54,239 bases of DNA from NCBI GenBank assembly GCA_018716065.1, contig DVKJ01000037.1:1-54239 (forward strand), written 5' to 3'. Shown here piece after piece: positions 34,887 through 54,239 of the stretch. The position numbers and the translations under genes are program-made. How positions within the stretch are numbered: position 1 is the stretch's first letter; each line of letters opens with the position of its first letter. Source of the stretch: Candidatus Pelethosoma merdigallinarum. GTDB taxonomy: Bacteria > Bacillota_I > Bacilli_A > RF39 > UBA660. The notes under the pieces are model-generated. The model worked only from the letters and a program-made list of their open reading frames with translations, was not told the origin of the DNA and made no database searches.

Positions 34887-37826
34887 TTATTCAACCACAT
34901 ATGGATCTTGCATCGTTCCTGTTCCTGTGAATGTAATCTTTGATGGATCGATATTTATAACTGGACGAACACCGAAAGCATAATCCACGTTGTTGCTCGT
35001 AAGCACGCCCGGCGACGACACGTAGAACTCGCTCGCACGAAACCAGTAGCTGAATCCGGACGGTGACATGGTCCAATAGTTAGTTCCACTATATAAATAA
35101 TAAAGTCGATTCTGGGCATTTGTCCTTCCACCAGCTATGTTCACTTCATCTGCAGTGATTAATCCAATTGGGTTGGTTAACTTCCCATTACCACTGGTAC
35201 TTGATACACTGAATTGATCATTGTTCCGTGAACAAATCAAGTTTGGTCCTTTTCTGGTTCCTTGCCAGTCCCAGAATTTGTCATAATCATAAATTGTTGA
35301 ATGGATTCCGTATCCTTCTTGTGTGTATGGATAAGCTACTTTTGTTGATGGAACACGATTATTACAGTAAATTGCCTCTTTTGAAATCTTATTATCATAA
35401 CTTTTTAAATTGTTGTTATACCAATTTTCTAGATATGTCTTCATGGTACTATTAGCATCATTTTTATGGGCACTTTCATAACTCGTAGATGAATATTCAA
35501 TTCCTTTCACTCGTAGTGTTGTATCATTCACTCCACTCGTTACATGTAACAATCGTTGACAAGTTGCGGTCTCATTACTACTGATACAGGTATAATAATT
35601 ATTTGTATTATACTTTTCTCGATATTCTTTTGGCGTTGCTTGTACTAAATCTCCACTTAATTTAAAACTTCTAGTTGATGAATCATATGTATAAGTGGTT
35701 CCGAAATAGTATTTTGTTGTTGGCGACAATCCATTATAATCGAAAGATTGAATTGATTCTGTTATTTGATTATTAGAAGTATCTCCATACATATACCCAA
35801 CATATGCATTATCTGCCCAATAACTATTAAACGCACTCGTTCCTACTTGACGATCACTACTTGATTCTCCATTCTCATGTGGTGTCTTTCCATCATAAAT
35901 CATACGAATACTTCCATCACCATTAATTCGAATAATTCGCCAATAGTAATCTCCAAACTTGACATAGTTTCCTCCCACTGCTCCTCTGTAATAGAAGGTA
36001 TCTCCGGCATTGTCCGTACTTGCATACATTCCCGTTCCACTATTGTCATATCCTTTAATTCCTGCGGTATAATTATATACAGTAGCCGTATAAGTTGTTC
36101 CCCCATTACTATTGGTACTCGTTGTTACTTTTGTTATTCTTCGCATCACTGTACAAGATGAATTTGTACTCGTACAAGTGTAATAGTTTCCATTTGAGTA
36201 ATCGATACTACTTGGATCTTGTAAACTTGAACCTGTTAAAGTATAGTATCCTGTTGATGAATCGAATGTATATCCCGTTCCTATTTGCCAATAAGTTGTA
36301 GTTGAAACAGTACTTGTATTCGTACTGGCTACTTCTTCATAAGTAATTGCAGGCGCACTTACTTTAAAGTCTGGTGTTCCTTTATCCTTAATTGTTTGTT
36401 TTGCTTCTTCTATGTTTGTATTTTTAGTTTCTGAAGCAAGTAAACAGTCTGCTAGATCGGTGACTCCATTCTTTTCACACCAACTCTTATGTTTGATCGT
36501 TGTTGATTTGGTGTTGATTTCTGATTTGTTTCCTGCCTTGTCCTCTACATATACACTCATTAAGTAATCTTTTTCTTCTAAGCTAGTAAAAGTATAGTTA
36601 GAGTTATTACTTTCTACAAAACTTTGTCCTCCATCTTTACTGTAAAAATATTTATTAACTCCACTTTCATTATCTACTCCAGTTACTTCAAGAGTAACCG
36701 TGTCATCATTTGGTGTAACATTGAAATTATAAATCGTTGGAATCGTAGAGTCTACTTTATACAAGTCTGAACACTTTGTAGTCTCATTATTAGAAGTATC
36801 AATAGCTTTTACACATAGTCTAGTTGGTAATGAGTTACTACTTAGATTCACACTATAAACATTCTCTTGACCTTCTAGTGGAGTTGTAGGTTCACAACTT
36901 GTTTCTGTTGTCTCACAATATTTGACTTCTTTTATTCCTACATTATCTGTAATGGTACTATCTAAGGTAAGACCCTTATACCACCCATTGTTTCCCATTA
37001 CATTATTACCTAATGTAATAGTTACTTTAGGATCAGTTTCATCCGTTGTACTGACTTTTCCGGATGAAAATACAACATTACCTAAAGAATCTTCTGCTTT
37101 TACGTAGATGGTATATTCTTTATGAGTATCTAGTTGATAAATGGTATATTCATTACTTGTTGTTTCATACCATTTATTATTATCTAAAGAATAATAATAT
37201 TTTATCGCATTCGTTGCGGTTATAATAGTCTTTATTGAATTTTCACTTGGTTCAAAAGTTAAATTAGTGATAGAAAGTTCATCTACATTTCCTTCTTCTG
37301 TAGCTTCACTAAAATTAGAACTATTTCCACTTTGTAAATAATTTAAGTTCATACTGAAATCAAAACTTTGATTACTTGGTATATCTGGTATATTCTCACT
37401 CAGTTTCATGATAAGTTGAAAGGTAATATCTTGATCTACAATGAGTTCTTCTCGTGCGGTAATTCCTTCTATCTTAAAATCAATATATTCTTGTTCTTCC
37501 ATACTCATCTTTATAGAGTCTAATACGGCATCGATATTACCTAGATTGGATACAGTAATATCATACGAAATACTATCGCCTGGCTTTTCAAATGACGCAC
37601 TCATATTAGCTGTTAGTTTGTCAAAACTTGGATCTGTAACATTCTTAGCATTACCTACTATTTTCTTTGTTTCTACATTGGTAATTTCAATTCTCCAATC
37701 AGTAGTAATCCCACCAGTTCCTTGAATATTTAAAGTTTGACTTAATACCGCATAGCCTACAGTTAGTCCAATCACAATCGCACATAGTGTTCCTATAATG
37801 ATTCTCTGTTTCTTTCTCGTTCTCAC
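34887..37826 (-). CDS. Large surface protein, putative DGR target adhesin
   Basis: GTG start after an AGAGGTGG RBS (the ORF-track ATG overlaps the -10 box). It has an N-terminal hydrophobic segment, a PGD..Y.I.V.N.G..DA domain, Ig/FN3-like repeats (YYYSLD, YFYSKD), WRIIRINGDGSIRMIY, and a C-terminal IGLITADE..YWTMSP...GVRPVI...GTGT..DPY domain of probable C-type-lectin-like fold. Confidence 0.85.
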   Translation of the reverse strand: MRTRKKQRIIIGTLCAIVIGLTVGYAVLSQTLNIQGTGGITTDWRIEITNVETKKIVGNAKNVTDPSFDKLTANMSASFEKPGDSISYDITVSNLGNIDAVLDSIKMSMEEQEYIDFKIEGITAREELIVDQDITFQLIMKLSENIPDIPSNQSFDFSMNLNYLQSGNSSNFSEATEEGNVDELSITNLTFEPSENSIKTIITATNAIKYYYSLDNNKWYETTSNEYTIYQLDTHKEYTIYVKAEDSLGNVVFSSGKVSTTDETDPKVTITLGNNVMGNNGWYKGLTLDSTITDNVGIKEVKYCETTETSCEPTTPLEGQENVYSVNLSSNSLPTRLCVKAIDTSNNETTKCSDLYKVDSTIPTIYNFNVTPNDDTVTLEVTGVDNESGVNKYFYSKDGGQSFVESNNSNYTFTSLEEKDYLMSVYVEDKAGNKSEINTKSTTIKHKSWCEKNGVTDLADCLLASETKNTNIEEAKQTIKDKGTPDFKVSAPAITYEEVASTNTSTVSTTTYWQIGTGYTFDSSTGYYTLTGSSLQDPSSIDYSNGNYYTCTSTNSSCTVMRRITKVTTSTNSNGGTTYTATVYNYTAGIKGYDNSGTGMYASTDNAGDTFYYRGAVGGNYVKFGDYYWRIIRINGDGSIRMIYDGKTPHENGESSSDRQVGTSAFNSYWADNAYVGYMYGDTSNNQITESIQSFDYNGLSPTTKYYFGTTYTYDSSTRSFKLSGDLVQATPKEYREKYNTNNYYTCISSNETATCQRLLHVTSGVNDTTLRVKGIEYSSTSYESAHKNDANSTMKTYLENWYNNNLKSYDNKISKEAIYCNNRVPSTKVAYPYTQEGYGIHSTIYDYDKFWDWQGTRKGPNLICSRNNDQFSVSSTSGNGKLTNPIGLITADEVNIAGGRTNAQNRLYYLYSGTNYWTMSPSGFSYWFRASEFYVSSPGVLTSNNVDYAFGVRPVINIDPSKITFTGTGTMQDPYVVE
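34956..35078 (-). other. Putative DGR variable region VR1
   Basis: 62 of 110 nt are G/C at 34961-35070 by manual count. Only 1 of 33 consecutive codons ends in A, and residual AAC AAC codons are present. Confidence 0.7.
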
Positions 37827-37872
37827 AAAACCACCTCTACTTCTATTATGGTTTATTCTATTATCTTTATTC

Positions 37873-37927
37873 ATTATACAAAAAGAGAGGGTTTATTGTC
37901 AATACCAATAACCCCCCCCCGTGGACG
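37873..37927 (-). promoter_or_regulatory. sigmaA promoter preceded by a G9 tract, copy 2
   Basis: Minus strand CAC-G9-TTATTGGTA-TTGACA-N18-TATAAT. Confidence 0.7.
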
Positions 37928-38084
37928 TCTAAAAAGTCACCGGATTTCACTTAGACCTTATTTTTAAAGGTCTAATAGATTAACAGAAACTTGTAAATTA
38001 TTGCCATTTGCTAACTAAAATTATTTATTCTTTTATATATTTAGTAAAAAAGAGACTACTTTTCATTTCTTAAAGTAGGCTCTT

Positions 38085-39152
38085 TTATTTTCTTTTGAGT
38101 ATAACTGGTACATGATTTAGAAATTGGTAATAAGGTTCTATATGATGATAATAGAAATCATATTCACCATTTTGATAGTAATAAACTTTTAATTGCTCTA
38201 AATAATCACAAATGATTTTTCTCTCTTCTATATTATTTTGATAGTATAATAATTGATTGGTCTTTTGGTTTAATAATTGTAAGTAAAAGGAAAGATTTGA
38301 TTCACCAGGCTTAATATAGTTTTTGAATAATGTAATAATATCGTCTAAAAGATCTTCTCTAGAACATCTTTTAAAATTTTCAATATAAAGAATAACGTTT
38401 TCTAATCTTGGATCATAATTTCCCTTTTGTTGTTCTGTATGTAAAATTTGAATATTTTCAACCATTGTGTGATAGCGATTTTCTTTTGTTAGTTGATGAA
38501 ATAATGGTGGAGCAAGTTCTGGATTCTCCTTTTTCACACACAAAGCTTTATATAATTCTAATTGTGCGATACTGATCATTTCTTTCTTTCCATCGATAGG
38601 ATAAAACGTCATAAAATGTGGATTATAAGCGACATTGTTGGTCACGATCTCTCTATATTGTTTCATAACACGATCCACTACAGATCGAGGTAATTTTTTC
38701 TTTTGTTTTATCTCTTCTATCTGTGATAAAGCATATTGATGAGCCTCGTATTCCGAAAAGTAATGATTATGAAGAAGTTCATCCTCTGGTTCTAAAGCTG
38801 TCGCATCACAAGTATAAAAATAACGATAAAATTTATTGATCGGATCTTTTTCTTCCTTATAAGTCTTGTGTTGAATAAAATGCTTACATTCATGAAGAAA
38901 TAAAAGAAGGAAAAATAAACGGTATTCGAAATTTTGCAAAAATTCGTTTACAACAAAAACATTAAGAACTATTTCTTTTTTCCCTGTGTCTATATACATT
39001 GGACAATTGGGGTCTAAGCGTTGAACAGCTATTTTTCTTACATAATCTTTATTAGGGTTCCCTGTAATTTGTTGGTTCGCAATTCTCTTAAACAATTTTA
39101 AATATTCATAAATGGTATGTTTTTGTTTCAAAAAATTCTCAATATCATTCAT
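38085..39152 (-). CDS. Hypothetical protein with HExxH zincin-like motif
   Basis: FLHECKHFIQ followed by SEYEAH. Confidence 0.75.
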   Translation of the reverse strand: MNDIENFLKQKHTIYEYLKLFKRIANQQITGNPNKDYVRKIAVQRLDPNCPMYIDTGKKEIVLNVFVVNEFLQNFEYRLFFLLLFLHECKHFIQHKTYKEEKDPINKFYRYFYTCDATALEPEDELLHNHYFSEYEAHQYALSQIEEIKQKKKLPRSVVDRVMKQYREIVTNNVAYNPHFMTFYPIDGKKEMISIAQLELYKALCVKKENPELAPPLFHQLTKENRYHTMVENIQILHTEQQKGNYDPRLENVILYIENFKRCSREDLLDDIITLFKNYIKPGESNLSFYLQLLNQKTNQLLYYQNNIEERKIICDYLEQLKVYYYQNGEYDFYYHHIEPYYQFLNHVPVILKRK

Positions 39153-39176
39153 ATTCTTTTTCCTTTCTCAAACTTA

Positions 39177-40316
39177 TTATTTCTTTAATAATGATTTTGG
39201 TTCTCCATCTATTAGATTCATGTCTTCTTGAGATAACTCATAAAGACTCCATTCATCATCCCTCTTAATAAAATAACAATCATCGGACTCTTTAGAAGTG
39301 AAATATTCGGTATCGTAATAAATCTCAGGAATTGTTTTAATCAATCCAAAGGATTTTGTTTCATAAAGTTTCATAATCCTATTATTTTGGTAAGATTGGC
39401 CATACTGTTTGGTATAGGCAACATCAATATCTTGTAAAGCTAGTTCTTGTAGAGTTTTTATGTGTTTTAAAATGTTTGAATTATGAACCGTATTTTCTTT
39501 GACAACATCTGGATAAATAGAAGCTAATTTTTTTGCTCTACTTACATTATCATAAGATAAATATAATTCGTGAATTCTATTTAGTCGTTGAACGATCGAA
39601 TCTACTTGTTTTTCTTGAATTCCTAATTGATTTAACGTGTGATAAAAAGTATCTAAAGAACCGGTTGTGCGCATTTTGTAAAAGACATCTTCTCCTAACG
39701 TTTCAATCCACATTTTGGCTAAGTTTCCTTCATACTCATAGATAGAATAATTTTCAGATGGATATTCTGTAGTAATAATATGAGTGAGTGTTTCTTCAAA
39801 AAATGAGGAATCGTCAATCGTTGGAAAAAGGGCGTGAATCATTTCGTGATAATACGTACTTGCAAAACTAGGATCTTCTTGATTAGAATGTAAATAAATA
39901 TTACTGTGAGAAAAAAGCCCAAAAAAATCTTGTTGCGTTTGAGTTTCTCCTGTGACTGTTCCCTCTTTTGGTTCATAATATACTTTTGTACCAGCGATGG
40001 ATGTTGCTAGGTTCTCATAATCGATATAGGGATTATTTTGACAATATAACAATAATTCATTTAACATAGAAGGATCAACTTTATTTGCCACTTTAAATAA
40101 TGGAGTGTCAGACATACGATCGATAAATTCCATAATAAATTCGTTTTTATCTTCATCTGGAAGCTCATTCACTTCGACTTCTAAATGATTATATGGGTGG
40201 GTATGTGCTTGAGTTGCCATTTGTAGAACTTCATAAGCTCTTTTATCTAGCCAGATGAGTTCTGATAAAATAATTAATTTGGATAAGATAAGTAAGGATG
40301 GTTTCTTTTTCGTCAT
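39177..40316 (-). CDS. Hypothetical protein with HExxH zincin-like motif and N-terminal hydrophobic segment
   Basis: YYHEMIHAL then FFEETLT; own TTGACA...TATAAT promoter. Confidence 0.75.
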   Translation of the reverse strand: MTKKKPSLLILSKLIILSELIWLDKRAYEVLQMATQAHTHPYNHLEVEVNELPDEDKNEFIMEFIDRMSDTPLFKVANKVDPSMLNELLLYCQNNPYIDYENLATSIAGTKVYYEPKEGTVTGETQTQQDFFGLFSHSNIYLHSNQEDPSFASTYYHEMIHALFPTIDDSSFFEETLTHIITTEYPSENYSIYEYEGNLAKMWIETLGEDVFYKMRTTGSLDTFYHTLNQLGIQEKQVDSIVQRLNRIHELYLSYDNVSRAKKLASIYPDVVKENTVHNSNILKHIKTLQELALQDIDVAYTKQYGQSYQNNRIMKLYETKSFGLIKTIPEIYYDTEYFTSKESDDCYFIKRDDEWSLYELSQEDMNLIDGEPKSLLKK

Positions 40317-40382
40317 ACATTCGCCCCTCTTTTAATCATGCTTATTATAGTCCTTTTTTTATTTTTGTCAATAAAAAAACCT

Positions 40383-41456
40383 CTATGAGGCTTTTTCTTC
40401 TTTGTTATCTTTAATATCTTTCCATTTATCGACAATATCTTCTTTAAAATATTTAAGGGTACTGATGATTAAAATCGCAACTGGTAAAGAAATAATAATA
40501 CCTACAACACCAGCGAGGATTCCACCTGCAAATACGGATAAGATGACAATGATGGGATGAACACTATTTGTTTTTCCGTATACAAATGGATTAATGACAT
40601 AACCATCTAAATTAGATAAAATAAAGAAGGCAATGAGTGTTCGAATAAATAAGGCTGGACTAATCACAAAGGCCGTTATACTGGCAATACAGTTGGTGAT
40701 AATCCCCCCAAAATATGGGATTAACGTTGCCACTGCAGCTAAGAATCCGAGTAATAAAGCATTTGGATGTCCAATGATGTAAAAGGCAATGGTATATTCA
40801 AATAGAGTAATTAATACAATCTTGAAGAATCCATTGAAATAATTGGTCATTTCATGATCTAATAATTGTACATAACGATATGTTTTTTTGGAACGAAGGC
40901 GTAAGAAACGTTTGACTCCATCACGAATTTTTCCCATGTCAATTAAGAAATAAATGGCTGCGGAAAAACCAATGACAATCATGGAAATTGCATTCATTGA
41001 TACACCTATAAAGTTCATGGCTCCATCGGAAATATACTTACTTAAGCTTTTGATAATATCATTGAACGCAGCCGAAAGATCGGCTTGTAATGGTCCAATA
41101 TTTAAATCATAATCTAAAGATAACTCTTTAAGGAAAGCAATAATACTATTAAATAAACTACTTAATTGTTCAAATAATAATGGAGCGATTAAACCAATGG
41201 TAATGGCTAAAAGTCCTAATACAAGTCCAATCACAATAAAGACCGCAATTCCTTTTGGAATCTTTTTGCTTTCTAAATAATGAAGAAAAGGATATAAAGC
41301 ATAGGCAAAGGCAAAGGCAAATAAGAAAGGTCCCACAATAGAGAAAATCTTACTTGCTACTCCTGTCCATAAGTTTCCTGTTTGATACATTAAGAAAACA
41401 ATACCAGTTAATAATAAGAAGTTTAATAATTTATAATTGACTTTATTTTTTAACAT
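40383..41456 (-). CDS. AI-2E family (PerM/UPF0118) transporter
   Basis: Multiple TM helices, LIPYFG, DGYVINPFVYG...VHP motifs. Confidence 0.92.
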   Translation of the reverse strand: MLKNKVNYKLLNFLLLTGIVFLMYQTGNLWTGVASKIFSIVGPFLFAFAFAYALYPFLHYLESKKIPKGIAVFIVIGLVLGLLAITIGLIAPLLFEQLSSLFNSIIAFLKELSLDYDLNIGPLQADLSAAFNDIIKSLSKYISDGAMNFIGVSMNAISMIVIGFSAAIYFLIDMGKIRDGVKRFLRLRSKKTYRYVQLLDHEMTNYFNGFFKIVLITLFEYTIAFYIIGHPNALLLGFLAAVATLIPYFGGIITNCIASITAFVISPALFIRTLIAFFILSNLDGYVINPFVYGKTNSVHPIIVILSVFAGGILAGVVGIIISLPVAILIISTLKYFKEDIVDKWKDIKDNKEEKAS

Positions 41457-41457
41457 A

Positions 41458-41901
41458 TTAAGACCTACTTTCTAACATAAAAGTAGCTGGTCCATCATTA
41501 GTAATGGATACTTTCATGTTTGCACCAAAGATTCCTGTCGCATATGGAATTTGTAGTGCGCTCAATTTTTGATTAAAAAGTTCATAAAGTTGACTACTCT
41601 CTTCCCCTCGTAAGGCATGGATGTAGCTAGGACGACGTCCTTTTTTGGTATCCGCATACAAAGTAAATTGCGAAATACTTAAAACACTTCCTCCTACATC
41701 TAATAAAGAACGATTCATAACTCCTTCTTCATCATCAAAGACACGAAGATGAATCATTTTATCGATTAAATAATCGATTTCTTTTTCTGTATCTCCCTCA
41801 GTAAAACTAACTAGGGCAACAAATCCGAAAGGAATTTCTCCAACTACGTTTCCATCTACTTCGACACTGGAATGAAGGGAGCGTTGTAATAATAAACGCA
41901 T
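41458..41901 (-). CDS. dtd: D-aminoacyl-tRNA deacylase
   Basis: MRLLLQR, SQFTL, GRRPS, NDGP; downstream of relA. Confidence 0.97.
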   Translation of the reverse strand: MRLLLQRSLHSSVEVDGNVVGEIPFGFVALVSFTEGDTEKEIDYLIDKMIHLRVFDDEEGVMNRSLLDVGGSVLSISQFTLYADTKKGRRPSYIHALRGEESSQLYELFNQKLSALQIPYATGIFGANMKVSITNDGPATFMLESRS

Positions 41902-46366: not shown

Positions 46367-46651
46367 TCATCTCCTACTTTCGTTGTCAAAATATACAGTG
46401 CGGTTTTTTAAATTTAACTTATCTTTAACATAATCCTCAATGAATTCATCTTCACAATTTAAGATATCATCTACCATCTCATGAAGTTGTAAACCATAAG
46501 CTGTTTTCCATTTCTTTTCTTTAAAGTAATTCCATATATCTTCTTCTTTGATATAGGTAAAACCATGGCGACGCATTTCTTCTTTTTTCGTTCGTAACGC
46601 TGGTTTTAAGCGTGTATATAATTCTTCTAAAGAATGAAAAGCTATTTCCAT
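46367..46651 (-). CDS. ComN/YrzD-like post-transcriptional regulator
   Basis: LKPAL..K.EE....G...I.EEDIWNY...KWK...LHEMVDDIL; lies upstream of secDF as in Bacillus. Confidence 0.8.
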   Translation of the reverse strand: MEIAFHSLEELYTRLKPALRTKKEEMRRHGFTYIKEEDIWNYFKEKKWKTAYGLQLHEMVDDILNCEDEFIEDYVKDKLNLKNRTVYFDNESRR

Positions 46652-46737
46652 ATTTACCCTCCTTGTTACCTACATATCCATTATACCAGAAATACTAGAA
46701 TTTGAAAGCAAAAACGAAAAAAACGAGAGTTTTCTCG

Positions 46738-47700
46738 TTAATTTGAAAGGGTTTGCTTTTTTACTTTGTTATTTTTTATTAGTGGTAAAAATTTTTCAAT
46801 TTCGTCATAGACTGGATAGTCTTGTGGAATATTCTTCCGAATACTTTCATAAATCCACGATAAAGCTACATCTATACTGATAGCTTGACCATCTGGAAAC
46901 TGTTTATTTTGATATAAACTGTTAATACTGTGATTCGTATCAATCTTAGCTGTAAAGCGATCTTCTTTCCCATCGAGAAAAACACAGATGTTTTCAAGTG
47001 TTTGCCCTTGATAATTAAAGAATAAATGAAAATCATTTTTTTCATCACTACGATAAAATTGACAAAAATATTTTCCTTCCTTATCCCTATATTGACCAAC
47101 CATATAGTTTAAGCACAACTCCTGAAGTAAATCGCACTGCGTAAACATTAAATAATCATAATTTTCTTTTTCTTCATAATCGGACTCTAAAACTAGTACA
47201 TACCCATAAGAAGTAGTTTTTAACATGTTATTGTTCGGTGTTGAAATGGGAAGTAAATTCGCTTGTAATTCCTCCTCGTTCTCTATCCCAATCAGTTCAC
47301 TTTTTCCTAGATATTCGGAATAGATCGAGAAATTAAAACGAGGCATCCATTCTTGTAAGAGACCAAAAAGAGGAGAATTTTGTATTTCACATTGTGAAAT
47401 ACGATTCAAAAAACGAGTACGTAAGGTTGACACCTCTTTATTTTCTTCTTTTAGTTTCTCTAAATAATTTAATTTGGAATCAAACCCTTGGTATAAAATA
47501 GGCGCACGAAGATGAATTTCAACATCTGACTCTAAGTACCTTTCAAAATCAGATTGTAAAATTTTAAAAAGTTCATCAAACGAATAATTTTCGTTTTGAA
47601 TAAAATCTACTGCCAAACTATTACAGTCCGTAAAACAGACACAATCATTCATGAGTAATAAAGATTCGATAAACCAATCGGTCACACTTTGATAAGTCAT
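46738..47700 (-). CDS. Hypothetical protein (orphan, probable paralog of the next gene)
   Basis: 320 aa ORF with GGGGG RBS. Confidence 0.75.
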   Translation of the reverse strand: MTYQSVTDWFIESLLLMNDCVCFTDCNSLAVDFIQNENYSFDELFKILQSDFERYLESDVEIHLRAPILYQGFDSKLNYLEKLKEENKEVSTLRTRFLNRISQCEIQNSPLFGLLQEWMPRFNFSIYSEYLGKSELIGIENEEELQANLLPISTPNNNMLKTTSYGYVLVLESDYEEKENYDYLMFTQCDLLQELCLNYMVGQYRDKEGKYFCQFYRSDEKNDFHLFFNYQGQTLENICVFLDGKEDRFTAKIDTNHSINSLYQNKQFPDGQAISIDVALSWIYESIRKNIPQDYPVYDEIEKFLPLIKNNKVKKQTLSN

Positions 47701-47712
47701 ATTTATTTCCCC

Positions 47713-48642
47713 CTATACTACTTTCTTTTTAACATAAGGTGTAATATCTAATTGTTGTTGTAAAAAAATACCCATAGGTGTAGTTAAATCGATATTGTCC
47801 TCAACTGTTTTTACTAAATCGCGATACAAAAGTTGAGGATCTAACGTTTGTGTACAATCTTGAGGAGCCTTATGAACCGTTAATACAGGATTACGATGTT
47901 CTTCAAAATAACATAAAAGATCCCAATCAGGTGATTGAACTTGAATGATAAATTGTGAAATGTGATCCGGTGTACCTAAAAAAGTAAATGTCATATTTTT
48001 ATTTTCTATTCCATCTATCCATTCATAACCAAATACTTTATCTTTTTGATCATACTGGGATAAAGTATAAATTTCTTGAATACAACCAGGGATATCTATT
48101 TTCGTACACTGAATTCCTTTGCTTTCTTCTGTTTGTGTATTACAAATATAATAAAATCCTTCTTCTTCCATACCAACCATTCCTCGCTCTTCTAAGAGAA
48201 AGAGAGAATATAACGGAATATTTTTTCTTCCCACACATTCTATACAAGGAATTGATTCCTCTGTTATTGTAAAATCAAATTGTTTTAACCATACGTTTAA
48301 CTCTTCCATCATAGGATATACATCCTGCGTATTTTGTTTCATTACAGAAAGAAGAGCGTGATAAAACTTTTCAAAACTATCATGATTTTCCTTCTTCCAA
48401 AAAGATAAAAAGTTATGATTCTCACATAGTAACTTTCGAATATTTTTTAATTCTTCTGAATCTCCAAAATGCTCATTCATTACCCTTTCACCTAAAAAAC
48501 TTTCTTTTATCTGATAAAACAAAGAATCAAAACTCACAATTTGTTTGTTTAATAATTTGGTCAATAAACTTTCCTTTTGTAAAAACAAAACATGTTCCGC
48601 AAGAAGGAAGGAATAGATGGTCTCGTTACAACTATTCTTCAT
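47713..48642 (-). CDS. Hypothetical protein (orphan)
   Basis: 309 aa ORF with AGGAGTGGTG RBS. Confidence 0.75.
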   Translation of the reverse strand: MKNSCNETIYSFLLAEHVLFLQKESLLTKLLNKQIVSFDSLFYQIKESFLGERVMNEHFGDSEELKNIRKLLCENHNFLSFWKKENHDSFEKFYHALLSVMKQNTQDVYPMMEELNVWLKQFDFTITEESIPCIECVGRKNIPLYSLFLLEERGMVGMEEEGFYYICNTQTEESKGIQCTKIDIPGCIQEIYTLSQYDQKDKVFGYEWIDGIENKNMTFTFLGTPDHISQFIIQVQSPDWDLLCYFEEHRNPVLTVHKAPQDCTQTLDPQLLYRDLVKTVEDNIDLTTPMGIFLQQQLDITPYVKKKVV

Positions 48643-48733
48643 GATTCACCACTCCTACTGGTATTGTATCACTTTTTCTCTTTATTTGAAATAATAATCA
48701 ACTTGTAACATATAGTTTTAGTGGTGAAGATCC

Positions 48734-50032
48734 GTGATAAGAAAAAGTACTTTTGTGAAATCAACGATTATTTTATTAATTGGTGGCGGCATTACTAAAT
48801 TACTTGGCATGGTAATTAAAATTGTCATGACACGAGCCATTGGAACAGAGGGAATTGGTCTTTATATGTTAATTTCGCCTACGTTTATGTTACTGATTGC
48901 GATTGCTCAATTAGGTTTTCCCATTGCCATTTCTACTTTAGTTGCCACCGAAAAAAAGAATAATAAAAATTTAGTTTTTTCTATCATTCCAATCGCTTTA
49001 CTCATTAATACTTTTCTATTAGTCTTTGTTTTTTTAATTAGTCAAACCCTAGCCACTCATTTATTACATGAAGAACGTGTTTATCTAGGAATCTTATCCA
49101 TGGCTTTTGTATTACCTTTTACCAGTATTTCTAGTATTCTTCGTGGATATTTTTTTGGCAAACAAAGAATGATTCCACACGTTGTTTCTAATATTACCGA
49201 AGATTTAGTACGTCTTGTCGTACTAGCTATTGGAATTCCTTATTTTCTAGGATTTGGATTAGAATACGCCGTAGCTTTTATCATCCTATCCAATATTTTT
49301 AGTGAATGTTCTTCCATTCTCGTTCTTTTCTTCTTTCTTCCCAAACACTTTAAATTATCCAAACAAGACTTTATTCCCAATAAACAAAATATAAAAGATA
49401 TTTTTAGTATTAGTTTACCTGCGACAGGAAGTCGTTTAATCGGAAATATTGGAGCCTTTTTTGAACCCATTATTTTATCTTTTATTTTACTACGAATTGG
49501 TTATTCCAATCATTTTATGGTTACCGAATATGGAATCTTAAATGGTTATATTATGCCTATTTTATTAATGCCTTCTTTCTTTACCACGGCCATTTCACAA
49601 GCTTTAATTCCCACGATTAGTAAAGCTTATAGTCATGGACATTTTAAGTATGCGAAAGGTAAAATTAAGCAAGCCATTGGTTTTTCCTTACTAATTGGAA
49701 TTCCCATGACCATCTTATTTGAATTAATACCAGAATTTGCTTTACAGTTTATTTATAACACCACCGAAGGTGTCACTTATTTACGTGTCCTCGCACCTGT
49801 CTTTCTTATTTTTTATGTTCAAGCACCACTAACCGCTGCCTTACAAGCAATGGGAAAAGCAAAAGAAGCGATGGCAGGTACCTTACAAGGTATGATTTTA
49901 AGAACGGTCCTCCTCCTCTTTCTCTCCACCCTTCACATTGGAATGTATGGACTGATTATTGCCAGTAGTGTGAATATTTTATATGTAACTTTCCATCAAT
50001 ACAAATATGTAAAAAAATACTTAAATGTGTGA
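48734..50032 (+). CDS. spoVB: Stage V sporulation protein B-like MOP flippase
   Basis: IGTEGIGLY, LG.PIAIS.LVA, ILRGYF.G.Q.M.P, ALIPTIS, Q.PL.AALQAMG; same neighbourhood as in Bacillus (yrbG, comN, secDF). Confidence 0.85.
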   Translation: MIRKSTFVKSTIILLIGGGITKLLGMVIKIVMTRAIGTEGIGLYMLISPTFMLLIAIAQLGFPIAISTLVATEKKNNKNLVFSIIPIALLINTFLLVFVFLISQTLATHLLHEERVYLGILSMAFVLPFTSISSILRGYFFGKQRMIPHVVSNITEDLVRLVVLAIGIPYFLGFGLEYAVAFIILSNIFSECSSILVLFFFLPKHFKLSKQDFIPNKQNIKDIFSISLPATGSRLIGNIGAFFEPIILSFILLRIGYSNHFMVTEYGILNGYIMPILLMPSFFTTAISQALIPTISKAYSHGHFKYAKGKIKQAIGFSLLIGIPMTILFELIPEFALQFIYNTTEGVTYLRVLAPVFLIFYVQAPLTAALQAMGKAKEAMAGTLQGMILRTVLLLFLSTLHIGMYGLIIASSVNILYVTFHQYKYVKKYLNV

Positions 50033-50059
50033 TATAATAGTACATTAGGAGTGAACACT

Positions 50060-51205
50060 ATGGAACAAAATATATATGAAGTCATGAATGACTTTGAAAA
50101 AATTATGGAAATTGCTCAAAAACATGCGGATCCATCTCATTCAAAATTTATCAAAAAAGAATATAAATATTTAGAAGAATCTTACCGTTATTATAATCGT
50201 AAATATAATCTTTCTTATTGTCCATTTGAAAATAACTTAAATCAAATCAATGGAAATTATAAACAAGGTACCAAATATATCGCAAGACACTTCTTTTATC
50301 CTATTAGTAGAAAATATGTTGGTACTATACTTACACAATTTCCATATCTCACAAAAAAAGAGGAAAAAGCATTAACCACAACCTGTTTTCAAAATATTGC
50401 TCATACGAAAAAAGGTTGGGAAATCAATCCCTACACCAGTTATATAAAAGAAACAAAAGAATTTTGTTCTTTGAGCGATCCGTTAGATTTTTTGGGTTCC
50501 GATGTCTTTTTATACGAAATGAGACAAACTCCTGTGGGAAGTGTCGCAATGGATCGTGTGTTATTAAAATATCAAACAAAATTAATTAAAGACATGAACG
50601 ATCACGGATTTATCAATCTTCTTCTTTCTCATGAACAAAAGAAGCATCATGTTCCGATTGTAAAAGAAAATCTCTGTCAATCTTTTCTTCAATTAAATAC
50701 AAACACAAGTGATTCACTTGCCCTATTTATCTTTTGGTTAAACAAATACATCAAATACTTAACTCTTCATCACCAACATGCACTACCAACAAAATTCGAA
50801 GAATGTCTCTTTCGAAATAAAAGACCCCCAAGATATTATCCTCGTCTCTTTATGGTAGTGACAGGCAAAAGTATGAAAGACTATCAAAAGACATTAGATC
50901 AACACCTAAAACTTCAACGAAAAATTAATGAATTATATCGTTTAAAAGATACTTGTCTTAATTTACTACTTAGAATGGAATATGAAAAGGATCGTTTATA
51001 TTTATCGGATAACAATGATTTAGTTTTAAATTATGTCAATATTTCTACTAATATTCAAGTATCCTTTCACATAAACGCAGAGAAATTAAATCGTAAATAT
51101 CTTGAACAAGTCCCATTTAAAGAAAGTGAACAAACCTCTCAATCTTTACCTTCTAAAACATTAAAAAAGGAATATAAACAATCGAAATTTGAACATCTAA
51201 TTTAA
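50060..51205 (+). CDS. Hypothetical protein (orphan)
   Basis: ORF with AGGAG RBS and upstream TGATATAAT; QVSFH near the C-terminus. Confidence 0.75.
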   Translation: MEQNIYEVMNDFEKIMEIAQKHADPSHSKFIKKEYKYLEESYRYYNRKYNLSYCPFENNLNQINGNYKQGTKYIARHFFYPISRKYVGTILTQFPYLTKKEEKALTTTCFQNIAHTKKGWEINPYTSYIKETKEFCSLSDPLDFLGSDVFLYEMRQTPVGSVAMDRVLLKYQTKLIKDMNDHGFINLLLSHEQKKHHVPIVKENLCQSFLQLNTNTSDSLALFIFWLNKYIKYLTLHHQHALPTKFEECLFRNKRPPRYYPRLFMVVTGKSMKDYQKTLDQHLKLQRKINELYRLKDTCLNLLLRMEYEKDRLYLSDNNDLVLNYVNISTNIQVSFHINAEKLNRKYLEQVPFKESEQTSQSLPSKTLKKEYKQSKFEHLI

Positions 51206-51214
51206 AAGTGAGTT

Positions 51215-51853
51215 TTATTGTAACTCACTTTTTTTAATAATATAAGTTTTATTCTTTGTATAAAACGCATAAAATACATCGTTTAAGGCAACATGATTCT
51301 TTTCTAATAAACGCGAAATCCATCGTTCGTCCTTGTTTAATTCTTTTAAAACCAATTGATCAATCACACCATCTACAATAAGAGGAAGTGGATAATCCTT
51401 ACATTGTTGAAATACTGATAGCTTCCCATTATTCTCTAATACGGCATAATCAACTTCTTCAATACTTTTAATTTGTTGTTCACGTAATTGACTCATTAAA
51501 TCATCTAAACTATATCGTAATTTTGTCATACGGTGAAACTGGATCTTTCCATTTTTAATTACGACTGTTGGATCACCATCAATAAACTTTCTAATCTTGG
51601 AATTTTTTAAAGATATAAAACTTAATACAACTTGAACGAATACTAAAGTAAGAATCGGAATAACCGAAACTAAAATTGATGAATTTGGTCGTTCAATAGA
51701 CATCGCTGCTAGTTCCGCAATTAAGATCGAAACAATTAAATCAACAATACCTAACTTTCCTACTTCTTTCTTTCCCATAATTCGATAAACTAAAATAATA
51801 AAAAAATATAGAAATAATGTTTTAAAAAACATGATCCCGTACATATCCATCAC
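51215..51853 (-). CDS. DUF421 (YetF/YrbG) family membrane protein
   Basis: RIMGKKEVGKL...DL, IDGDPTVVIKNG, LREQ, YAVLENNGKLSV. Confidence 0.92.
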   Translation of the reverse strand: MMDMYGIMFFKTLFLYFFIILVYRIMGKKEVGKLGIVDLIVSILIAELAAMSIERPNSSILVSVIPILTLVFVQVVLSFISLKNSKIRKFIDGDPTVVIKNGKIQFHRMTKLRYSLDDLMSQLREQQIKSIEEVDYAVLENNGKLSVFQQCKDYPLPLIVDGVIDQLVLKELNKDERWISRLLEKNHVALNDVFYAFYTKNKTYIIKKSELQ

Positions 51854-51948
51854 CTATTAAATATTGAACAACCTTTTTCTTTTTATACAAGAAATTTTTA
51901 CTTCTTTTTAAAATATATAAAACATATAGTATAACAGGAGGAATTCTC

Positions 51949-52323
51949 ATGAACATTATTTATTTAAAAAACTTTATGAAAACGTTAGGTTTATGTATTG
52001 GATTATTTTTAGTCATCACTCTATTAGCAACGGCATTAAACTTTTTTAATGTGATTACTACTAATACCATGGGAATTTTTAAAATGATTATTCCCGTGAT
52101 TGCATTGTTAATTAGTGGAATTTACTTAGGAAGTAAAGCCAAAAATAAAGGTTGGAAAGAAGGATTAAAATTAAGTGTCTTTATTATTCTTCTTCTCCTC
52201 TTCTTCCATCTTGTTTGGATGAATGAAACCTTTGGAATGAAAAACATTCTCTATTATGCGATTCTTTTAATATCAGGAATGGTTGGAAGTATGGTAGGAA
52301 TCAACATAAAAAGGAAAAACTAA
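51949..52323 (+). CDS. YrzE-like (TIGR04086-type) four-TM membrane protein
   Basis: Four hydrophobic helices, G...G.K...KGW..G and GSMVGIN; divergent from the DUF421 gene as in Bacillus. Confidence 0.8.
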   Translation: MNIIYLKNFMKTLGLCIGLFLVITLLATALNFFNVITTNTMGIFKMIIPVIALLISGIYLGSKAKNKGWKEGLKLSVFIILLLLFFHLVWMNETFGMKNILYYAILLISGMVGSMVGINIKRKN

Positions 52324-53757
52324 CTATTTTTCCTTTTTGTATACTTTATTAGTCGTAATATTCATTACTTCATCCGCATAAACAAAATGATAATTTCCCA
52401 TTTGTAACTGTTCTTTCACATCATCATTCATGATATCCAACAAGTGATACGGTACATAAGCTTTTATTTTTAAATCTGTATCTTCTTCTGAAGAAAGTGA
52501 AGAAAAACGCTTATAAATATCTGATTCTTTCATCTGATATTCTTCCGCTAAAGTTTGAAACAATTGTTTCGTTATTTTTTCTAAATATATCAAATAATCA
52601 GAACTATGAATATCTATGTTATCTTGATAAGTAACATAATAAGATTGATAAAAAGACTCTAACTGACCCAAATACCACTTATAAAAGAATAAAATATCAT
52701 CTAATGGAATATCTTTATTTTTAACATAGTTTAATAGATGAATCGTATAATTTTTTAATAAACTAGAACTAAAATCCCCATACATTTCTCTTCGGATATT
52801 CGCACGATCTGTCGCATCGATATTTTTACCATGAAGCTTTTTATAATATCGGTTTAAATCATCATTTTGTTTAAAAGATAAAAATTCCATCGTATTCATG
52901 ACATCGTATAACTCTTTCGATTCTCCTTCAAACAAATGAATCATCTTTTTCAAATCGTTGTGTAAAATGGCATCTTGAATTGCGATGGTTCCCTTTGAAT
53001 TCGAAAATAAATACGAATTAATAAATAAGCGATATAAATCTTCTTCTAAAGGATAACTACTAAATTCACTTTCATAATTAGTAGATGCAAAAGCTTCTTG
53101 AATGACATAATTACCAAATCCTGGCTGACATTCCAAAGAATGACATGGGCATGGATTTTGTTCCATATGTGATAATTCATGAAGAAAAGAATTTTGAGCA
53201 AGTGTTTGAAAATACATTTCTTCTCCCATAATTTGTGAACGAATCACAGAATCGTAAACCGTAATCATATTATAAGCTGTATTATAAGACATTAAGGCAT
53301 CCGAATCTTCTTTCGTTTCGACGATTGCTAAAGAAGATAAAGAATGAGAAAAAGCTTCTAATTCTTCATGATCACAACGTTCTTTCATATCCGTAATCAC
53401 TTCTTTTAAAGAATATTCAAAAGCATCTAAATATTCTTCACCCAATTCTTTATATTCAGGAAGAGCCTTTAAAAAAGGCTTAGAATTTTCCAAAATCATA
53501 TCAGTAATATTCGATACATCCTGATCTAAAACAGAAGTATGATTCTCAGAACAACTATAATCAACACCTTTATAATCTTTCCAGTCTGAATACGATTGAC
53601 TTAATTCATAAATTCCTTCGTATTCATATTCTATTTTAACGTTATTAATTGCTTTTTCAAATGCGGATTGATCTTCAATCGTCGCACTCATGGTTGTCAT
53701 CGTTCCGCCTGTTAATAATATTAAGAGAGAAGCTTTCGCTTTCTTCGTTAGTTTCAT
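52324..53757 (-). CDS. Putative exported protein with HExxH zincin-like motif
   Basis: Basic/hydrophobic N-terminus, FLHELSHMEQ, then IQEAFA. Confidence 0.75.
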   Translation of the reverse strand: MKLTKKAKASLLILLTGGTMTTMSATIEDQSAFEKAINNVKIEYEYEGIYELSQSYSDWKDYKGVDYSCSENHTSVLDQDVSNITDMILENSKPFLKALPEYKELGEEYLDAFEYSLKEVITDMKERCDHEELEAFSHSLSSLAIVETKEDSDALMSYNTAYNMITVYDSVIRSQIMGEEMYFQTLAQNSFLHELSHMEQNPCPCHSLECQPGFGNYVIQEAFASTNYESEFSSYPLEEDLYRLFINSYLFSNSKGTIAIQDAILHNDLKKMIHLFEGESKELYDVMNTMEFLSFKQNDDLNRYYKKLHGKNIDATDRANIRREMYGDFSSSLLKNYTIHLLNYVKNKDIPLDDILFFYKWYLGQLESFYQSYYVTYQDNIDIHSSDYLIYLEKITKQLFQTLAEEYQMKESDIYKRFSSLSSEEDTDLKIKAYVPYHLLDIMNDDVKEQLQMGNYHFVYADEVMNITTNKVYKKEK

Positions 53758-53850
53758 AGTTTTCACCCCAGTAGACCTATTGTATCACTTTTTATGGTTT
53801 TGTCAATTTCTTTTCTCACAAAAAAGACACTTCATTTTGTGCCTTTTTGA

Positions 53851-54239
53851 TTATATTTCATATGGATTATCATAACTCCCATTTCCATCAAGAATTTGAA
53901 CATCAGGACCAATCATAATCACTGGGCGCACACCGTTCGCATCCGACACGCCATAATTAATCACAAAGCCATCGATGCTCACGAGCCACGCATTCGATGC
54001 ACTATATGGCGTAGTTGTCCAAAAATATTGTGAATTTAACAAATAACTTGAACTGCCACTTGCCAGATTATATTCATCCAATGATAATAAACCAATAGGT
54101 TTCTGTATACTTGATAAATTACTAGTACAGGTTGTTCTTGATGAAGATGAAGAAGTTGTTGTTTCACTACACCATGTTTGATTTACAAGTAAATCTTTAT
54201 GTTCTAACTTTGGATAAAAATAATTATTTAACCAATCAT
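53851..54239 (-). CDS. 3' end of a surface protein, second putative DGR target (5' part outside window)
   Basis: The frame is open to the window edge: DWLNNYFY...PIGLLSLDEY...YFWTTTP..AWLV..G.V....V....GVRPVI...GNGSYDNPY. This is the same C-terminal domain as in the 34887 gene. Confidence 0.85.
   Translation of the reverse strand, partial: DWLNNYFYPKLEHKDLLVNQTWCSETTTSSSSSRTTCTSNLSSIQKPIGLLSLDEYNLASGSSSYLLNSQYFWTTTPYSASNAWLVSIDGFVINYGVSDANGVRPVIMIGPDVQILDGNGSYDNPYEI
53915..54025 (-). other. Putative DGR variable region VR2
   Basis: 53 of 100 nt are G/C at 53921-54020 by manual count. None of 24 consecutive codons ends in A, and the region reads as an adenine-mutated AAY-rich template. Confidence 0.72.

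What the first reader, a model, noticed from the sequence alone, without database searches (positions are those of the whole stretch)
34956..54025. The two variable regions appear to come from different templates, implying a multi-template, multi-target system
Seen: VR1 and VR2 align without gaps from A/S through GVRPVI but differ at synonymous positions of scaffold codons (GCT/GCG, GTT/GTG, CGT/CGC, GTT/GTG) and at TTC versus TGG. One template would keep non-adenine positions identical. Inference: at least two templates serve dispersed adhesin genes 19 kb apart in ordinary chromosomal context. That would be a genome-wide surface-diversification network rather than a compact DGR cassette, possibly combined with the G9 promoters.
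Basis: inference. Interest (0 to 1): 0.75.

Follow-up and report, generated by a model that had tools for sequence, protein, structure and literature searches.

The report
Orphan DGR variable regions, two families
The two variable stretches are real and belong to two different families of surface-protein genes that sister species rewrite with two different retroelement templates, but this genome assembly holds no template and only a broken reverse transcriptase.

Summary
VR1 (34962-35067, minus strand) and VR2 (53923-54003, minus strand) are the A-poor, G+C-rich C-terminal stretches of two homologous DUF6273 domains. They differ at 43 of 81 aligned bases, spread evenly over codon positions (14/14/15), so one template cannot explain both.

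- The genome (1.32 Mb, 30.6% GC, 66 contigs, 91% complete) has about 28 such domains in three families: A (includes VR1), B (includes VR2) and C.
- Two sister species of the same genus carry complete diversity-generating retroelement (DGR) cassettes. Each has a target gene, a template repeat (TR), a MutS_I-like ORF, a bAvd-like ORF and a reverse transcriptase (RT).
- One cassette's TR matches family A and the other's matches family B. In G001 the TR and a remote VR differ at 15 of 26 TR adenines and 2 of 80 other positions.
- This assembly has no TR, no Avd and only a 5'-truncated B-type RT on contig C54.

VR1 and VR2 are therefore orphan variable regions of two template classes. They are either fossils or are served by cassettes that were not assembled.

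Multi-target and multi-TR DGRs, DUF6273 targets, and TR-less genomes that keep remnant targets are all in print. I rate this a new member of a known kind, of moderate interest. One sister genome has a second, RT-less TR unit, and some relatives have 3-4 tandem TR units.

The parts
34887..37874 (-). Family-A surface protein gene (995-aa ORF). It has an N-terminal membrane anchor or signal, weak Ig-like domain matches, and a C-terminal DUF6273-like domain that carries VR1. The true start is probably the in-frame GVG-type start GTG at 37826, which follows an AGAGGTGG ribosome-binding site, because the listed ATG overlaps the -10 box (inference).
   Evidence: The paralogs C2:1-1414 and C41:13660-14311 are both cut by contig ends.
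34962..35067 (-). VR1: 106 nt homologous to the family-A template repeat of sister genome G001. The last codons read GGT GTT CGT CCA, where the TR and the paralogs C2/C41 read GGC GTC CGC CC-.
   Evidence: Against TR_A(G001), 13 of 26 A positions and 15 of 80 non-A positions differ.
53851..54237 (-). 3' part of a family-B DUF6273 surface protein gene, cut by the contig end. The sequence upstream of VR2 is like the first domain of the two-domain B proteins (96% identical to C7). The tail after VR2 is like their second domain.
53923..54003 (-). VR2: 81 nt homologous to the family-B template repeats of sister genome G002. The last 13 nt (GGTGTGCGCCCAG) are identical to the end of G002's TR1.
   Evidence: Against TR1(G002), 9 of 22 A positions and 15 of 59 non-A positions differ.
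37873..37920 (-). G9 tract (37912-37920), then TTGACA (37902-37897), an 18-nt spacer and TATAAT (37878-37873), all upstream of the VR1 gene. This is context and is not shown to be part of any DGR.
   Evidence: A similar G9-TATCTGGTATTGATA element lies at 286-294.

Best explanation
VR1 and VR2 are the variable regions of two paralogous families (A and B) of DUF6273 (C-type-lectin-like) ligand-binding domains. These domains sit at the C-termini of surface proteins in a small-genome gut Bacilli bacterium.

In this genus such regions are written by diversity-generating retroelements (DGRs). A non-coding template repeat (TR), rich in AAY codons, is transcribed and reverse-transcribed with errors at adenines. 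The copy then replaces the VR. Family A and family B each have their own cassette type (TR, MutS_I-like ORF, bAvd-like ORF, RT), seen intact in two sister species. A third TR class fits family C.

The two VRs therefore descend from different templates. In this assembly they are orphans, because no TR or Avd is present and the only RT is a 5'-truncated B-type remnant.

My estimates of the current state (inference):
- VR1 is probably a frozen, slowly decaying copy (about 60%).
- For VR2 and the most A-poor copies, either recent activity or an unassembled cassette is about as likely as loss.

Shown: the homology, the composition, the codon-position pattern, the sister cassettes and the absence from the assembly. 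Inferred: that these particular VRs were written by retrohoming, and when.
For: 1. About 28 DUF6273-type sites in 1.32 Mb. 26 of the 34 motif hits look like the domain, plus 2 stop-containing copies.

2. A-poor, G+C-rich VR segments in a 30.6% GC genome. A falls to 0.14-0.15 in C26:786 and C4:9283. Four of the 21 copies are not depleted (A 0.30-0.34: C47, C54:36831, C54:25257, C19:14184).

3. Among family-A paralogs, flank differences fall mostly on third codon positions while VR differences fall on positions 1-2.
- C2 vs C41: flank 14/9/39, VR 9/6/1, p=4e-5.
- C20 vs C41: p=2e-5.
- C20 vs C2: p=3e-4.

4. G001:C96 carries the end of a family-A target, then TR_A, a MutS_I-like ORF, bAvd-like (40.2 bits, cut-off 40) and a 371-aa RT. 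TR_A and a VR on another contig differ at 15 of 26 A and 2 of 80 non-A positions.

5. G002:C77 carries a two-domain family-B target, then TR_B, a MutS_I-like ORF, bAvd-like (38.4 bits) and a 333-aa RT. The RT's best solved relative is 8ub7_A, E 5e-29, against about 1e-8 for retron and group II RTs. TR1 and the VR on G002:C18 differ at 15 of 22 A and 3 of 59 non-A positions.

6. Best-fitting TR among 44 TR-like units.
- All 3 family-A VRs fit TR_A(G001) best.
- VR2 and 11 of 15 other B copies fit one of G002's two TRs best.
- Family C fits a third TR class: C26:785 at 22/28 A vs 10/49 non-A (p=7e-7), and C4 at 21/29 vs 12/48 (p=5e-5).

7. The own RT remnant at C54:12206-12610 matches only RVT_1 positions 135-205. 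It is 67% identical to the G002 RT and 51% to the G001 RT.
Against: - No TR exists in the assembly, so the defining TR/VR adenine test cannot be done for VR1 or VR2.
- Against the sister-species TRs the adenine bias is weak. VR1 differs at 9/20 A vs 13/61 non-A (p=0.04). VR2 differs at 9/22 vs 15/59 (p=0.14).
- Several B and C copies show no bias at all, for example C31:26787 (p=0.9) and C47:20226 (p=0.4).
- B-family paralog pairs gave weaker codon-position contrasts (p=0.05-0.18).
- The striking contrast for VR2 (96% identity in the flank, 64% in the VR, against C7) may reflect a hybrid first-domain/second-domain gene rather than hypermutation.
- VR2 lacks the 9-bp inverted repeat found about 30 nt downstream of the first-domain B VRs and of G002's VRs.
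- The fold of the domain was not tested here.
Confidence: 0.7

Rival explanations
1. The genome does run an active multi-template system. Two or three cassettes, or one RT with several detached TR units, sit on short repeat-bounded contigs that were not assembled or binned, and they currently diversify VR2, the family-C copies and perhaps VR1.
For: - Sister cassettes lie on tiny contigs that end in VR/TR repeats: G001:C96 is 3105 nt and G004:C27 is 1030 nt.
- The own assembly has no contig under 2600 nt and is 91% complete.
- A falls to 0.14-0.15 in some VRs.
- The 3' end of VR2 is identical to that of G002's TR1.
- G002 has a second, RT-less TR unit, and relatives have 3-4 tandem TR units before one RT.
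- In run X3, two contigs align on both sides of 34974-35065 but not across it.
Against: - No TR, spacer or Avd, and no second RT fragment, appears anywhere in 1.32 Mb.
- The one RT is truncated in the middle of a 55-kb contig.
- The G+C-rich 3' end of VR1 has three synonymous C-to-T differences from the TR and from its paralogs.
- There are pseudogene copies on C26, C28 and C61.
- The X3 signal can equally come from paralogs, because reads were laid at 80% likeness.
Confidence: 0.3
2. No retroelement was ever involved. VR1 and VR2 are ordinary diverged paralogs whose loop residues evolve fast under selection.
For: - There is no TR in the assembly.
- The adenine bias against sister TRs is weak for VR1 and VR2.
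- Flank divergence is high between many B and C copies, at 46-69% identity.
Against: - Selection on amino acids does not explain G/C-ending synonymous codons and A depletion confined to about 100 nt in a 30.6% GC genome.
- It does not explain conserved third positions beside variable first and second positions.
- It does not explain cognate AAY-rich non-coding TRs with Avd and RT in sister species.
Confidence: 0.07
3. A single template with adenines at all differing positions wrote both VR1 and VR2.
For: None found. Formally such a template can always be imagined.
Against: - It would need A at 43 or more of 81 positions, including 15 third codon positions.
- The three control TRs have 20-24 A in 81 nt.
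- VR1 fits TR_A with 13/61 non-A mismatches but TR_B with 31/59. VR2 fits TR_B with 15/59 but TR_A with 30/61.
- Upstream of the 81-nt stretch compared here (the family-A TR homology runs to 106 nt), family A has five more residues between the W-T-x-x-P motif and GVRP.
Confidence: 0.02

Closest known systems
Treponema denticola DGRs with remote targets, and isolates that keep target genes but lack RT and TR (PMC4891356; passages read)
   Same: There are several paralogous C-terminal-VR surface proteins dispersed over the chromosome. Some genomes have targets but no core cassette. A remote VR can fit another strain's TR type better, which the authors read as a leftover of a lost cassette.
   Different: Here there are about 28 domains in three families in a 1.3-Mb genome. 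The targets are DUF6273 rather than the T. denticola target type. The host is a reduced-genome gut Bacilli bacterium. A truncated RT remnant is still present.
Gut-phage DGRs that hypermutate DUF6273 domains ('tentaclins', PMC10743442; passages read)
   Different: Those are phage receptor-binding proteins with one compact cassette, and one of their VRs is at the 5' end. Here the genes are chromosomal, anchored surface proteins with C-terminal VRs, and no cassette lies nearby.
Multi-VR and multi-TR DGRs from survey work (PMC6642488; passages read)
   Same: The survey found that 271 of 948 non-redundant DGRs have several VRs and about a fifth of those have more than one TR. One Stenotrophomonas DGR has two TRs and six VRs in lectin-like (DUF1566) proteins. 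Several templates and several targets in one genome is therefore a known arrangement.
   Different: In the two sister cassettes each template class has its own RT. The RT-less TR unit on G002:C16 and the 3-4 tandem TR units in L122, L127 and L142 are arrangements I did not see described in the passages I read.
Bordetella phage BPP-1 DGR (Mtd, TR, Avd, bRT); my knowledge of its mechanism is recalled, not read here
   Same: The sister cassettes have a bAvd-like ORF and an RT whose best solved relative is 8ub7_A, E 5e-29. I recall that entry as the Bordetella bRT complex, but the tool names it only 'Reverse transcriptase'. They also show adenine-specific TR/VR differences and a G+C-rich VR 3' end.
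   Different: The gene order is target-TR-MutS_I-like-Avd-RT. The TR with about 230 nt of downstream sequence ends in a terminator-like hairpin before the protein genes. The targets are DUF6273 domains. None of this machinery is in the present assembly.

Membership tests
Diversity-generating retroelement (complete system in this genome) | A DGR-clade reverse transcriptase gene | tested here: not met
   Only C54:12206-12610 was found: 134 aa, covering RVT_1 positions 135-205 of 205, with homology starting inside motif 4. A second hit, C54:53320-53547, scores 17.2 bits and has 5 stops. tblastn with three sister RTs finds nothing else.
Diversity-generating retroelement (complete system in this genome) | A non-coding template repeat homologous to the VR | tested here: not met
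   - blastn (word 7) of 21 VR segments gave 29 places. 27 are DUF6273 sites and 2 are short matches of 48 and 25 nt.
- Sister TR_A and TR_B hit only VR sites.
- An AAY-codon detector scored at most 6 at 42 sites, in a gene remnant, against 8-11 for the three control TRs.
- The assembly is 91% complete.
Diversity-generating retroelement (complete system in this genome) | TR/VR differences confined to TR adenines | tested here: inconclusive
   There is no own TR. Against sister TRs, VR1 differs at 9/20 A vs 13/61 non-A (p=0.04), VR2 at 9/22 vs 15/59 (p=0.14), C2 at 12/20 vs 9/61 (p=2e-4) and C41 at 9/20 vs 9/61 (p=8e-3). The feature is met in sister genomes: 15/26 vs 2/80 and 15/22 vs 3/59.
Diversity-generating retroelement (complete system in this genome) | Accessory variability determinant (Avd) | tested here: not met
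   tblastn with three sister Avd-like ORFs gave a best E of 0.4 to 1.3. In the sister genomes, Pfam bAvd scores 40.2 bits (G001) and 38.4 bits (G002) against a cut-off of 40.
Diversity-generating retroelement (complete system in this genome) | Target-recognition elements at the VR 3' end: a G+C-rich end matching the TR, and a nearby inverted repeat (a requirement I recall from the Bordetella work) | tested here: inconclusive
   The VR2 end is identical to the TR1(G002) end over 13 nt. The VR1 end differs from TR_A at 3 synonymous sites. A 9-bp inverted repeat lies downstream of G002's VRs and the own first-domain B VRs, but not downstream of VR2.
Pfam DUF6273 (PF19789) | Score at or above the gathering cut-off | tested here: met
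   - The VR2 protein scores 23.7 bits against a cut-off of 23.5.
- The G002 target scores 25.6 bits.
- The nearest ESM Atlas clusters are named DUF6273.
- The VR1 protein does not reach E<=0.1, but it is homologous to the VR2 domain at E 2e-13.
C-type lectin fold of DGR targets | Predicted or solved fold with the VR on the ligand-binding face | not tested
A profile search of PDB sequences gave 0 hits at E<=1. The fold assignment rests on PMC10743442 only.
Multi-template DGR (two or more TRs, each serving its own VRs) | Two or more distinct TRs in one genome, each with better-fitting VRs | tested here: not met
   The own assembly has 0 TRs. The feature is met in sister G002, which has two TR units, 92% identical to each other over the 116-nt TR stretch, and one RT. 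The C18 VR fits TR1 (3/59 vs 6/57 non-A). The C16, C77-b and C12 VRs fit TR2 (5/57, 8/57, 7/57 vs 11/59, 14/59, 11/59). G002 has 7% contamination, but its 707-aa neighbour gene is single-copy.

The most novel reading that the evidence does not exclude
In this clade of reduced-genome gut Bacilli the template RNA gene (the TR plus its roughly 230-400-nt spacer and terminator) may be a free-standing module. It can be duplicated away from the RT (G002:C16) or arrayed 3-4 times before one RT (L122, L127, L142). A few RT/Avd genes would then drive, in trans, dozens of DUF6273 surface-protein VRs of three families scattered over a 1.3-Mb chromosome. The present genome, with about 28 such domains, would be one node of such a genome-wide network, with its cassettes simply missing from the assembly.
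Probability: 0.25. Interest if true: 0.65.

Novelty: new member of a known kind. Interest (0 to 1): 0.4.

Why it matters
The case shows how a tiny gut genome can devote some two dozen surface-protein domains to retroelement-written binding sites. It also shows that such variable regions remain recognisable after the machinery is lost or missed by assembly, through A depletion, G/C-ending codons and variable first and second codon positions.

There is a practical point for annotation. DGR finders that require RT, TR and VR on one contig will miss these systems in metagenome-assembled genomes, because the cassettes fall on short contigs bounded by repeats.

The detached and tandem template units in relatives would be worth an experimental look. 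They suggest that one RT/Avd pair may choose among several template RNAs.

Tried and rejected
- Metagenome scan with a degenerate family-A VR/TR motif: 0 matches. I did not use the second scan.
- Laying Logan contigs of four runs on 34800-54239 at 80% likeness. The output was dominated by paralogs and other strains. Depth over the VR1 gene was 5-10 times that of neighbouring genes. The X3 contigs that skip 34974-35065, and the X3 contig that ends at 53925, are compatible with VR variability but equally with paralogs. There were no raw reads, so within-population variation could not be seen.
- Sister-species TR-flanking ('spacer') DNA against the own genome gave only noise (best E 0.01). Against 201 family genomes it gave 2 short matches. 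These sequences are not conserved beyond the genus.
- C26:1000-1170 was considered as a possible TR, because it is non-coding, has 6 AAY codons and follows a family-C gene. I rejected it because it continues into the normal B-type C-terminal tail and stop codon, so it is a gene remnant.
- The C13:16106-16684 homolog of G001's orf211 (35% identity) was considered as a cassette trace. I rejected it because it sits among housekeeping genes.
- Structure prediction was tried four times and never accepted because of the queue. A PDB sequence-profile search found 0 hits.
- The search of earlier findings returned nothing for this genome.
- The VR2-against-C7 contrast (flank 96%, VR 64%) is not used as proof of hypermutation, because the VR2 gene looks like a hybrid of first-domain and second-domain sequence.
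Full report
**1. What is at the coordinates**

The window is contig C20 of a 1,324,942-base, 66-contig assembly. It is 30.6% G+C, 91.4% complete and 2% contaminated.

The DNA motif that encodes V-R-P-V occurs twice in the window, at 34960-34970 and 53921-53931, both on the minus strand. The chance expectation is 0.25.
- The first site ends a 995-aa ORF (34887-37874). The protein has an N-terminal hydrophobic anchor and weak Ig-like domain matches.
- The second site ends an ORF that runs off the contig end (53851-54237). Its product passes Pfam DUF6273 at 23.7 bits against a cut-off of 23.5.

The two C-terminal domains are homologous (32% identity, E 2e-13).

In the gapless 81-nt alignment ending at the Pro codon the two regions differ at 43 positions, 14/14/15 by codon position.

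Both regions are A-poor and G+C-rich against their own upstream sequence: A is 0.20 and 0.24 against 0.34. The 19 kb between them holds housekeeping genes, including RelA/SpoT, SecDF and Dtd.

**2. A large gene family in this genome**

A six-frame motif search gave 23 hits. I dropped 2 (C1, and C47 plus strand) because they did not look like the domain. A looser search gave 34 hits, of which 26 look like the domain. Two further copies carry stop codons. That makes about 28 DUF6273-type sites. They fall into three families.
- Family A has three large paralogs: VR1, C2 and C41.
- Family B has seven proteins with two domains each, plus the VR2 gene and a 3' remnant on C26.
- Family C has six short C-termini, two of them broken.
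- Three sites are odd ones that fit none of these.

Seventeen of the 21 measured segments have A below 0.30, with a minimum of 0.14. Four have A of 0.30-0.34.

Among family-A paralogs the flanks differ mainly at third codon positions, while the VR differs at first and second positions with third positions kept.
- C2 vs C41: flank 14/9/39, VR 9/6/1, p=4e-5.
- C20 vs C41: p=2e-5.
- C20 vs C2: p=3e-4.

The B and C pairs gave weaker contrasts (p 0.01-0.19).

**3. No template and no working RT in the assembly**

- blastn with 7-base words of all 21 VR segments found 29 places. 27 are the domains themselves and 2 are short matches of 48 and 25 nt.
- A Pfam RVT_1 search of the whole assembly found one hit at the cut-off, C54:12263-12475, and one sub-threshold hit with five stops.
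- The first hit is a 134-aa ORF that matches only RVT_1 positions 135-205. It lies between an EzrA-like gene and a ThiI-like gene (my reading of the translations). Upstream, homology stops inside motif 4 and no other frame continues it.
- tblastn with the RT, Avd-like and MutS_I-like proteins of three sister cassettes found only that fragment: 67%, 51% and 44% identity to the RTs of G002, G001 and G003.
- A detector for AAY-rich stretches that end in the G-x-R-P codons scored at most 6 at 42 sites, against 8-11 for three control TRs.
- The three family-A genes are followed by housekeeping genes.

**4. Sister species carry the machinery in two kinds**

RVT_1 hits occur in 25 of 41 genomes searched, counting G000. 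All four other genomes of the genus have one.

G001:C96 is a 3105-nt contig. It starts inside the end of a family-A target, then carries a 106-nt AAY-rich TR, a MutS_I-like ORF, a bAvd-like ORF (40.2 bits, cut-off 40), a 211-aa ORF and a 371-aa RT. Its TR compares with VRs as follows.

| VR | A positions differing | non-A positions differing |
|---|---|---|
| G001:C5 (another contig) | 15/26 | 2/80 |
| G001, second copy | 13/26 | 8/80 |
| G001, third copy | 14/26 | 15/80 |
| Own VR1 | 13/26 | 15/80 |
| Own C2 | 15/26 | 10/80 |
| Own C41 | 13/26 | 9/80 |

Seven of the non-A differences are shared by C2 and C41. That is what a slightly different TR in this species would give. The last codons of VR1 differ from the TR, and from C2/C41, at three synonymous C/T sites. 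One G001 copy shares exactly these three letters. This suggests an old, no-longer-rewritten copy (inference).

G002:C77 carries a 610-aa target with two DUF6273 domains and two VRs, an 81-nt TR, a MutS_I-like ORF, a bAvd-like ORF (38.4 bits) and a 333-aa RT. The RT's best solved relative is 8ub7_A at E 5e-29, against about 1e-8 for retron and group II intron RTs.

Distribution in the genus:
- TR_B DNA was found in G002 and G003 but not in G001 or G004.
- TR_A DNA was not found in G002, G003 or G004.
- Of the five genomes of the genus searched, only this one has both family A and family B.

**5.

A scan of species-representative genomes with the G002 RT found 408 relatives. The best 80 loci were kept. 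They are labelled mostly as uncultured Bacilli, Tenericutes or 'Mycoplasma sp.' gut genomes.

A crude filter (6 or more AAY codons in the 75 nt before the G-x-R-P codons) found TR-like units in 34 of the 80 loci: 31 with one, 1 with three and 2 with four. The other 46 loci had none by this filter. That may reflect short flanks or other target types, so these counts are lower bounds.

Against the 44 TR-like units (these plus G001's and G002's second), best fits were as follows.
- All 3 family-A VRs fit G001's TR best.
- VR2 and 11 of 15 other B copies fit one of G002's two TRs best.
- Family-C copies fit a third class: C26:785 at 22/28 A vs 10/49 non-A (p=7e-7), and C4 at 21/29 vs 12/48 (p=5e-5).

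For VR1 and VR2 themselves the adenine bias against these foreign TRs is weak (p=0.04 and 0.11-0.14), and several AT-rich copies show none. The family-to-template assignment is clear. The claim that each individual VR was written recently is not.

**6. Templates per RT**

In G001 I saw one TR and one RT.

G002 has a second TR unit on contig C16. It is 92% identical over the TR and nearly identical over about 230 nt downstream, up to a terminator-like hairpin. It lies right after another family-B target, with no MutS_I-like, Avd or RT gene in the 5.6 kb that follow.
- G002's VRs split between the two TRs. The C18 VR has 3/59 non-A mismatches to TR1 and 6/57 to TR2. The VRs on C16, C77-b and C12 have 5, 8 and 7 of 57 to TR2, against 11, 14 and 11 of 59 to TR1.
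- G002 is 7% contaminated, which is a caveat. Its 707-aa neighbour gene is single-copy in that genome.

In L142, four TR units with a period of 385-400 nt lie in 2 kb without long ORFs, upstream of an Avd-sized ORF and the RT. L122 and L127 were seen only through the filter.

Several genomes have two or three separate RT loci in the 80 kept. Both 'several cassettes' and 'several templates per RT' therefore occur in the clade.

**7. Active or fossil here?**

For loss:
- the truncated RT inside a 55-kb contig;
- the decayed 3' end of VR1;
- broken copies on C26, C28 and C61;
- AT-rich copies.

For an unassembled cassette:
- sister cassettes sit on contigs of 3.1 and 1.0 kb bounded by repeats;
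- no contig here is under 2.6 kb;
- some VRs are very A-poor;
- VR2's last 13 nt are identical to the end of G002's TR1.

The species occurs in 19 listed runs from 11 studies, many labelled chicken gut. Only contigs were available, and laying them was inconclusive. A metagenome motif scan found nothing.

**8. Comparison with what is in print**

- DUF6273 domains as DGR targets with a lectin-like predicted fold are described for gut phages (PMC10743442, passages read).
- Remote targets, and isolates that keep targets without RT or TR, are described for T. denticola (PMC4891356, passages read).
- Multi-VR and multi-TR DGRs are counted in a survey (PMC6642488, passages read; supplements not opened).
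- Seven papers hold the word DUF6273, and I read passages of one. I make no claim that tandem or RT-less TR units are unpublished.
- The roles of the G+C-rich VR end and of a downstream inverted repeat in homing, and the identity of 8ub7 as the Bordetella enzyme, are recalled and were not read here.

**9. Verdict**

The inference 'different templates' is right as a statement about descent: there are two, and indeed three, template classes. The inference 'a multi-template system in this genome' is not shown, because the assembly contains no template and no working RT. This is a new member of a known kind, of moderate interest. The detached and tandem template units in relatives are the part most worth following.

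Noticed in passing
window 37873-37920 (-) and 286-294 (-): Two G9 tracts, each followed by a near-identical element (G9-T(T)AT(C/T)TGGTATTGA(C/T)A) that includes a -35-like box. The first precedes TTGACA, an 18-nt spacer and TATAAT upstream of the VR1 gene. Four G8 matches were found against 0.10 expected. This could be a slippage-prone promoter element, but no length variation was tested.
   Followed up: partly
G000:C54:12206-12610 (locus L017:1444-1848): A 5'-truncated DGR-type RT remnant (134 aa, 67% identical to the G002 RT) sits between an EzrA-like gene and a ThiI-like gene. A 166-aa ORF of no known family overlaps its start on the other strand.
   Followed up: partly
L067:5400-5830 (G002:C16) against L039:2990-3420 (G002:C77): A second template unit in a sister genome. 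It comprises the TR plus about 230 nt of nearly identical downstream sequence and a terminator-like hairpin. It lies behind another family-B target, with no Avd or RT gene in the 5.6 kb that follow.
   Followed up: partly
L142:150-2050; also L122:540-2230 and L127:2540-3080: Three or four tandem TR-like units (period 385-400 nt in L142) lie in non-coding DNA upstream of one Avd-sized ORF and one RT, in relatives labelled uncultured Mycoplasma sp./Bacilli. Only L142 was checked with ORF and repeat tools.
   Followed up: partly
About 30 nt downstream of first-domain B VRs (own C7:10764 and C19:14829; G002 C77, C16, C18): A perfect 9-bp inverted repeat with a 3-nt loop lies inside the codons for T-I-T-G-G-N-G-T. 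It is conserved across species at VRs that fit a TR well. It is absent downstream of VR2 and of the second-domain VRs of this genome. It may be a target-recognition hairpin.
   Followed up: partly
window 53851-54237 (-) compared with G000:C7:10460-11430: The VR2 gene looks like a hybrid. Its sequence up to the start of the VR is 96% identical to the first domain of the C7 protein. The VR start and the C-terminal tail resemble second domains. Possible causes are recombination between the two VRs of a two-domain gene, or an assembly join.
   Followed up: partly
G000:C26:1000-1170 (locus L053): A non-coding 3' remnant of a family-B gene (VR plus tail and stop, with stop codons upstream) lies directly after a family-C gene and before TrmH-, RimM- and TrmD-like genes.
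   Followed up: yes
L039:3409-3810 and L040:511-939: Both sister cassettes encode a small protein (133 and 142 aa) that matches Pfam MutS domain I (21.3 and 32.5 bits, cut-off 20.6), between the TR and the Avd-like gene.
   Followed up: no
L041 (G003:C7:3000-10000): A third cassette type in the genus. A 560-aa target ends in a glycine-rich lectin-like C-terminus of a different kind, followed by a 151-aa ORF, a 118-aa Avd-sized ORF and a 350-aa RT. It sits upstream of the ortholog of the 707-aa gene that follows the RT-less TR unit in G002. No homolog of that 707-aa gene was found in this genome at E<=1e-10.
   Followed up: no
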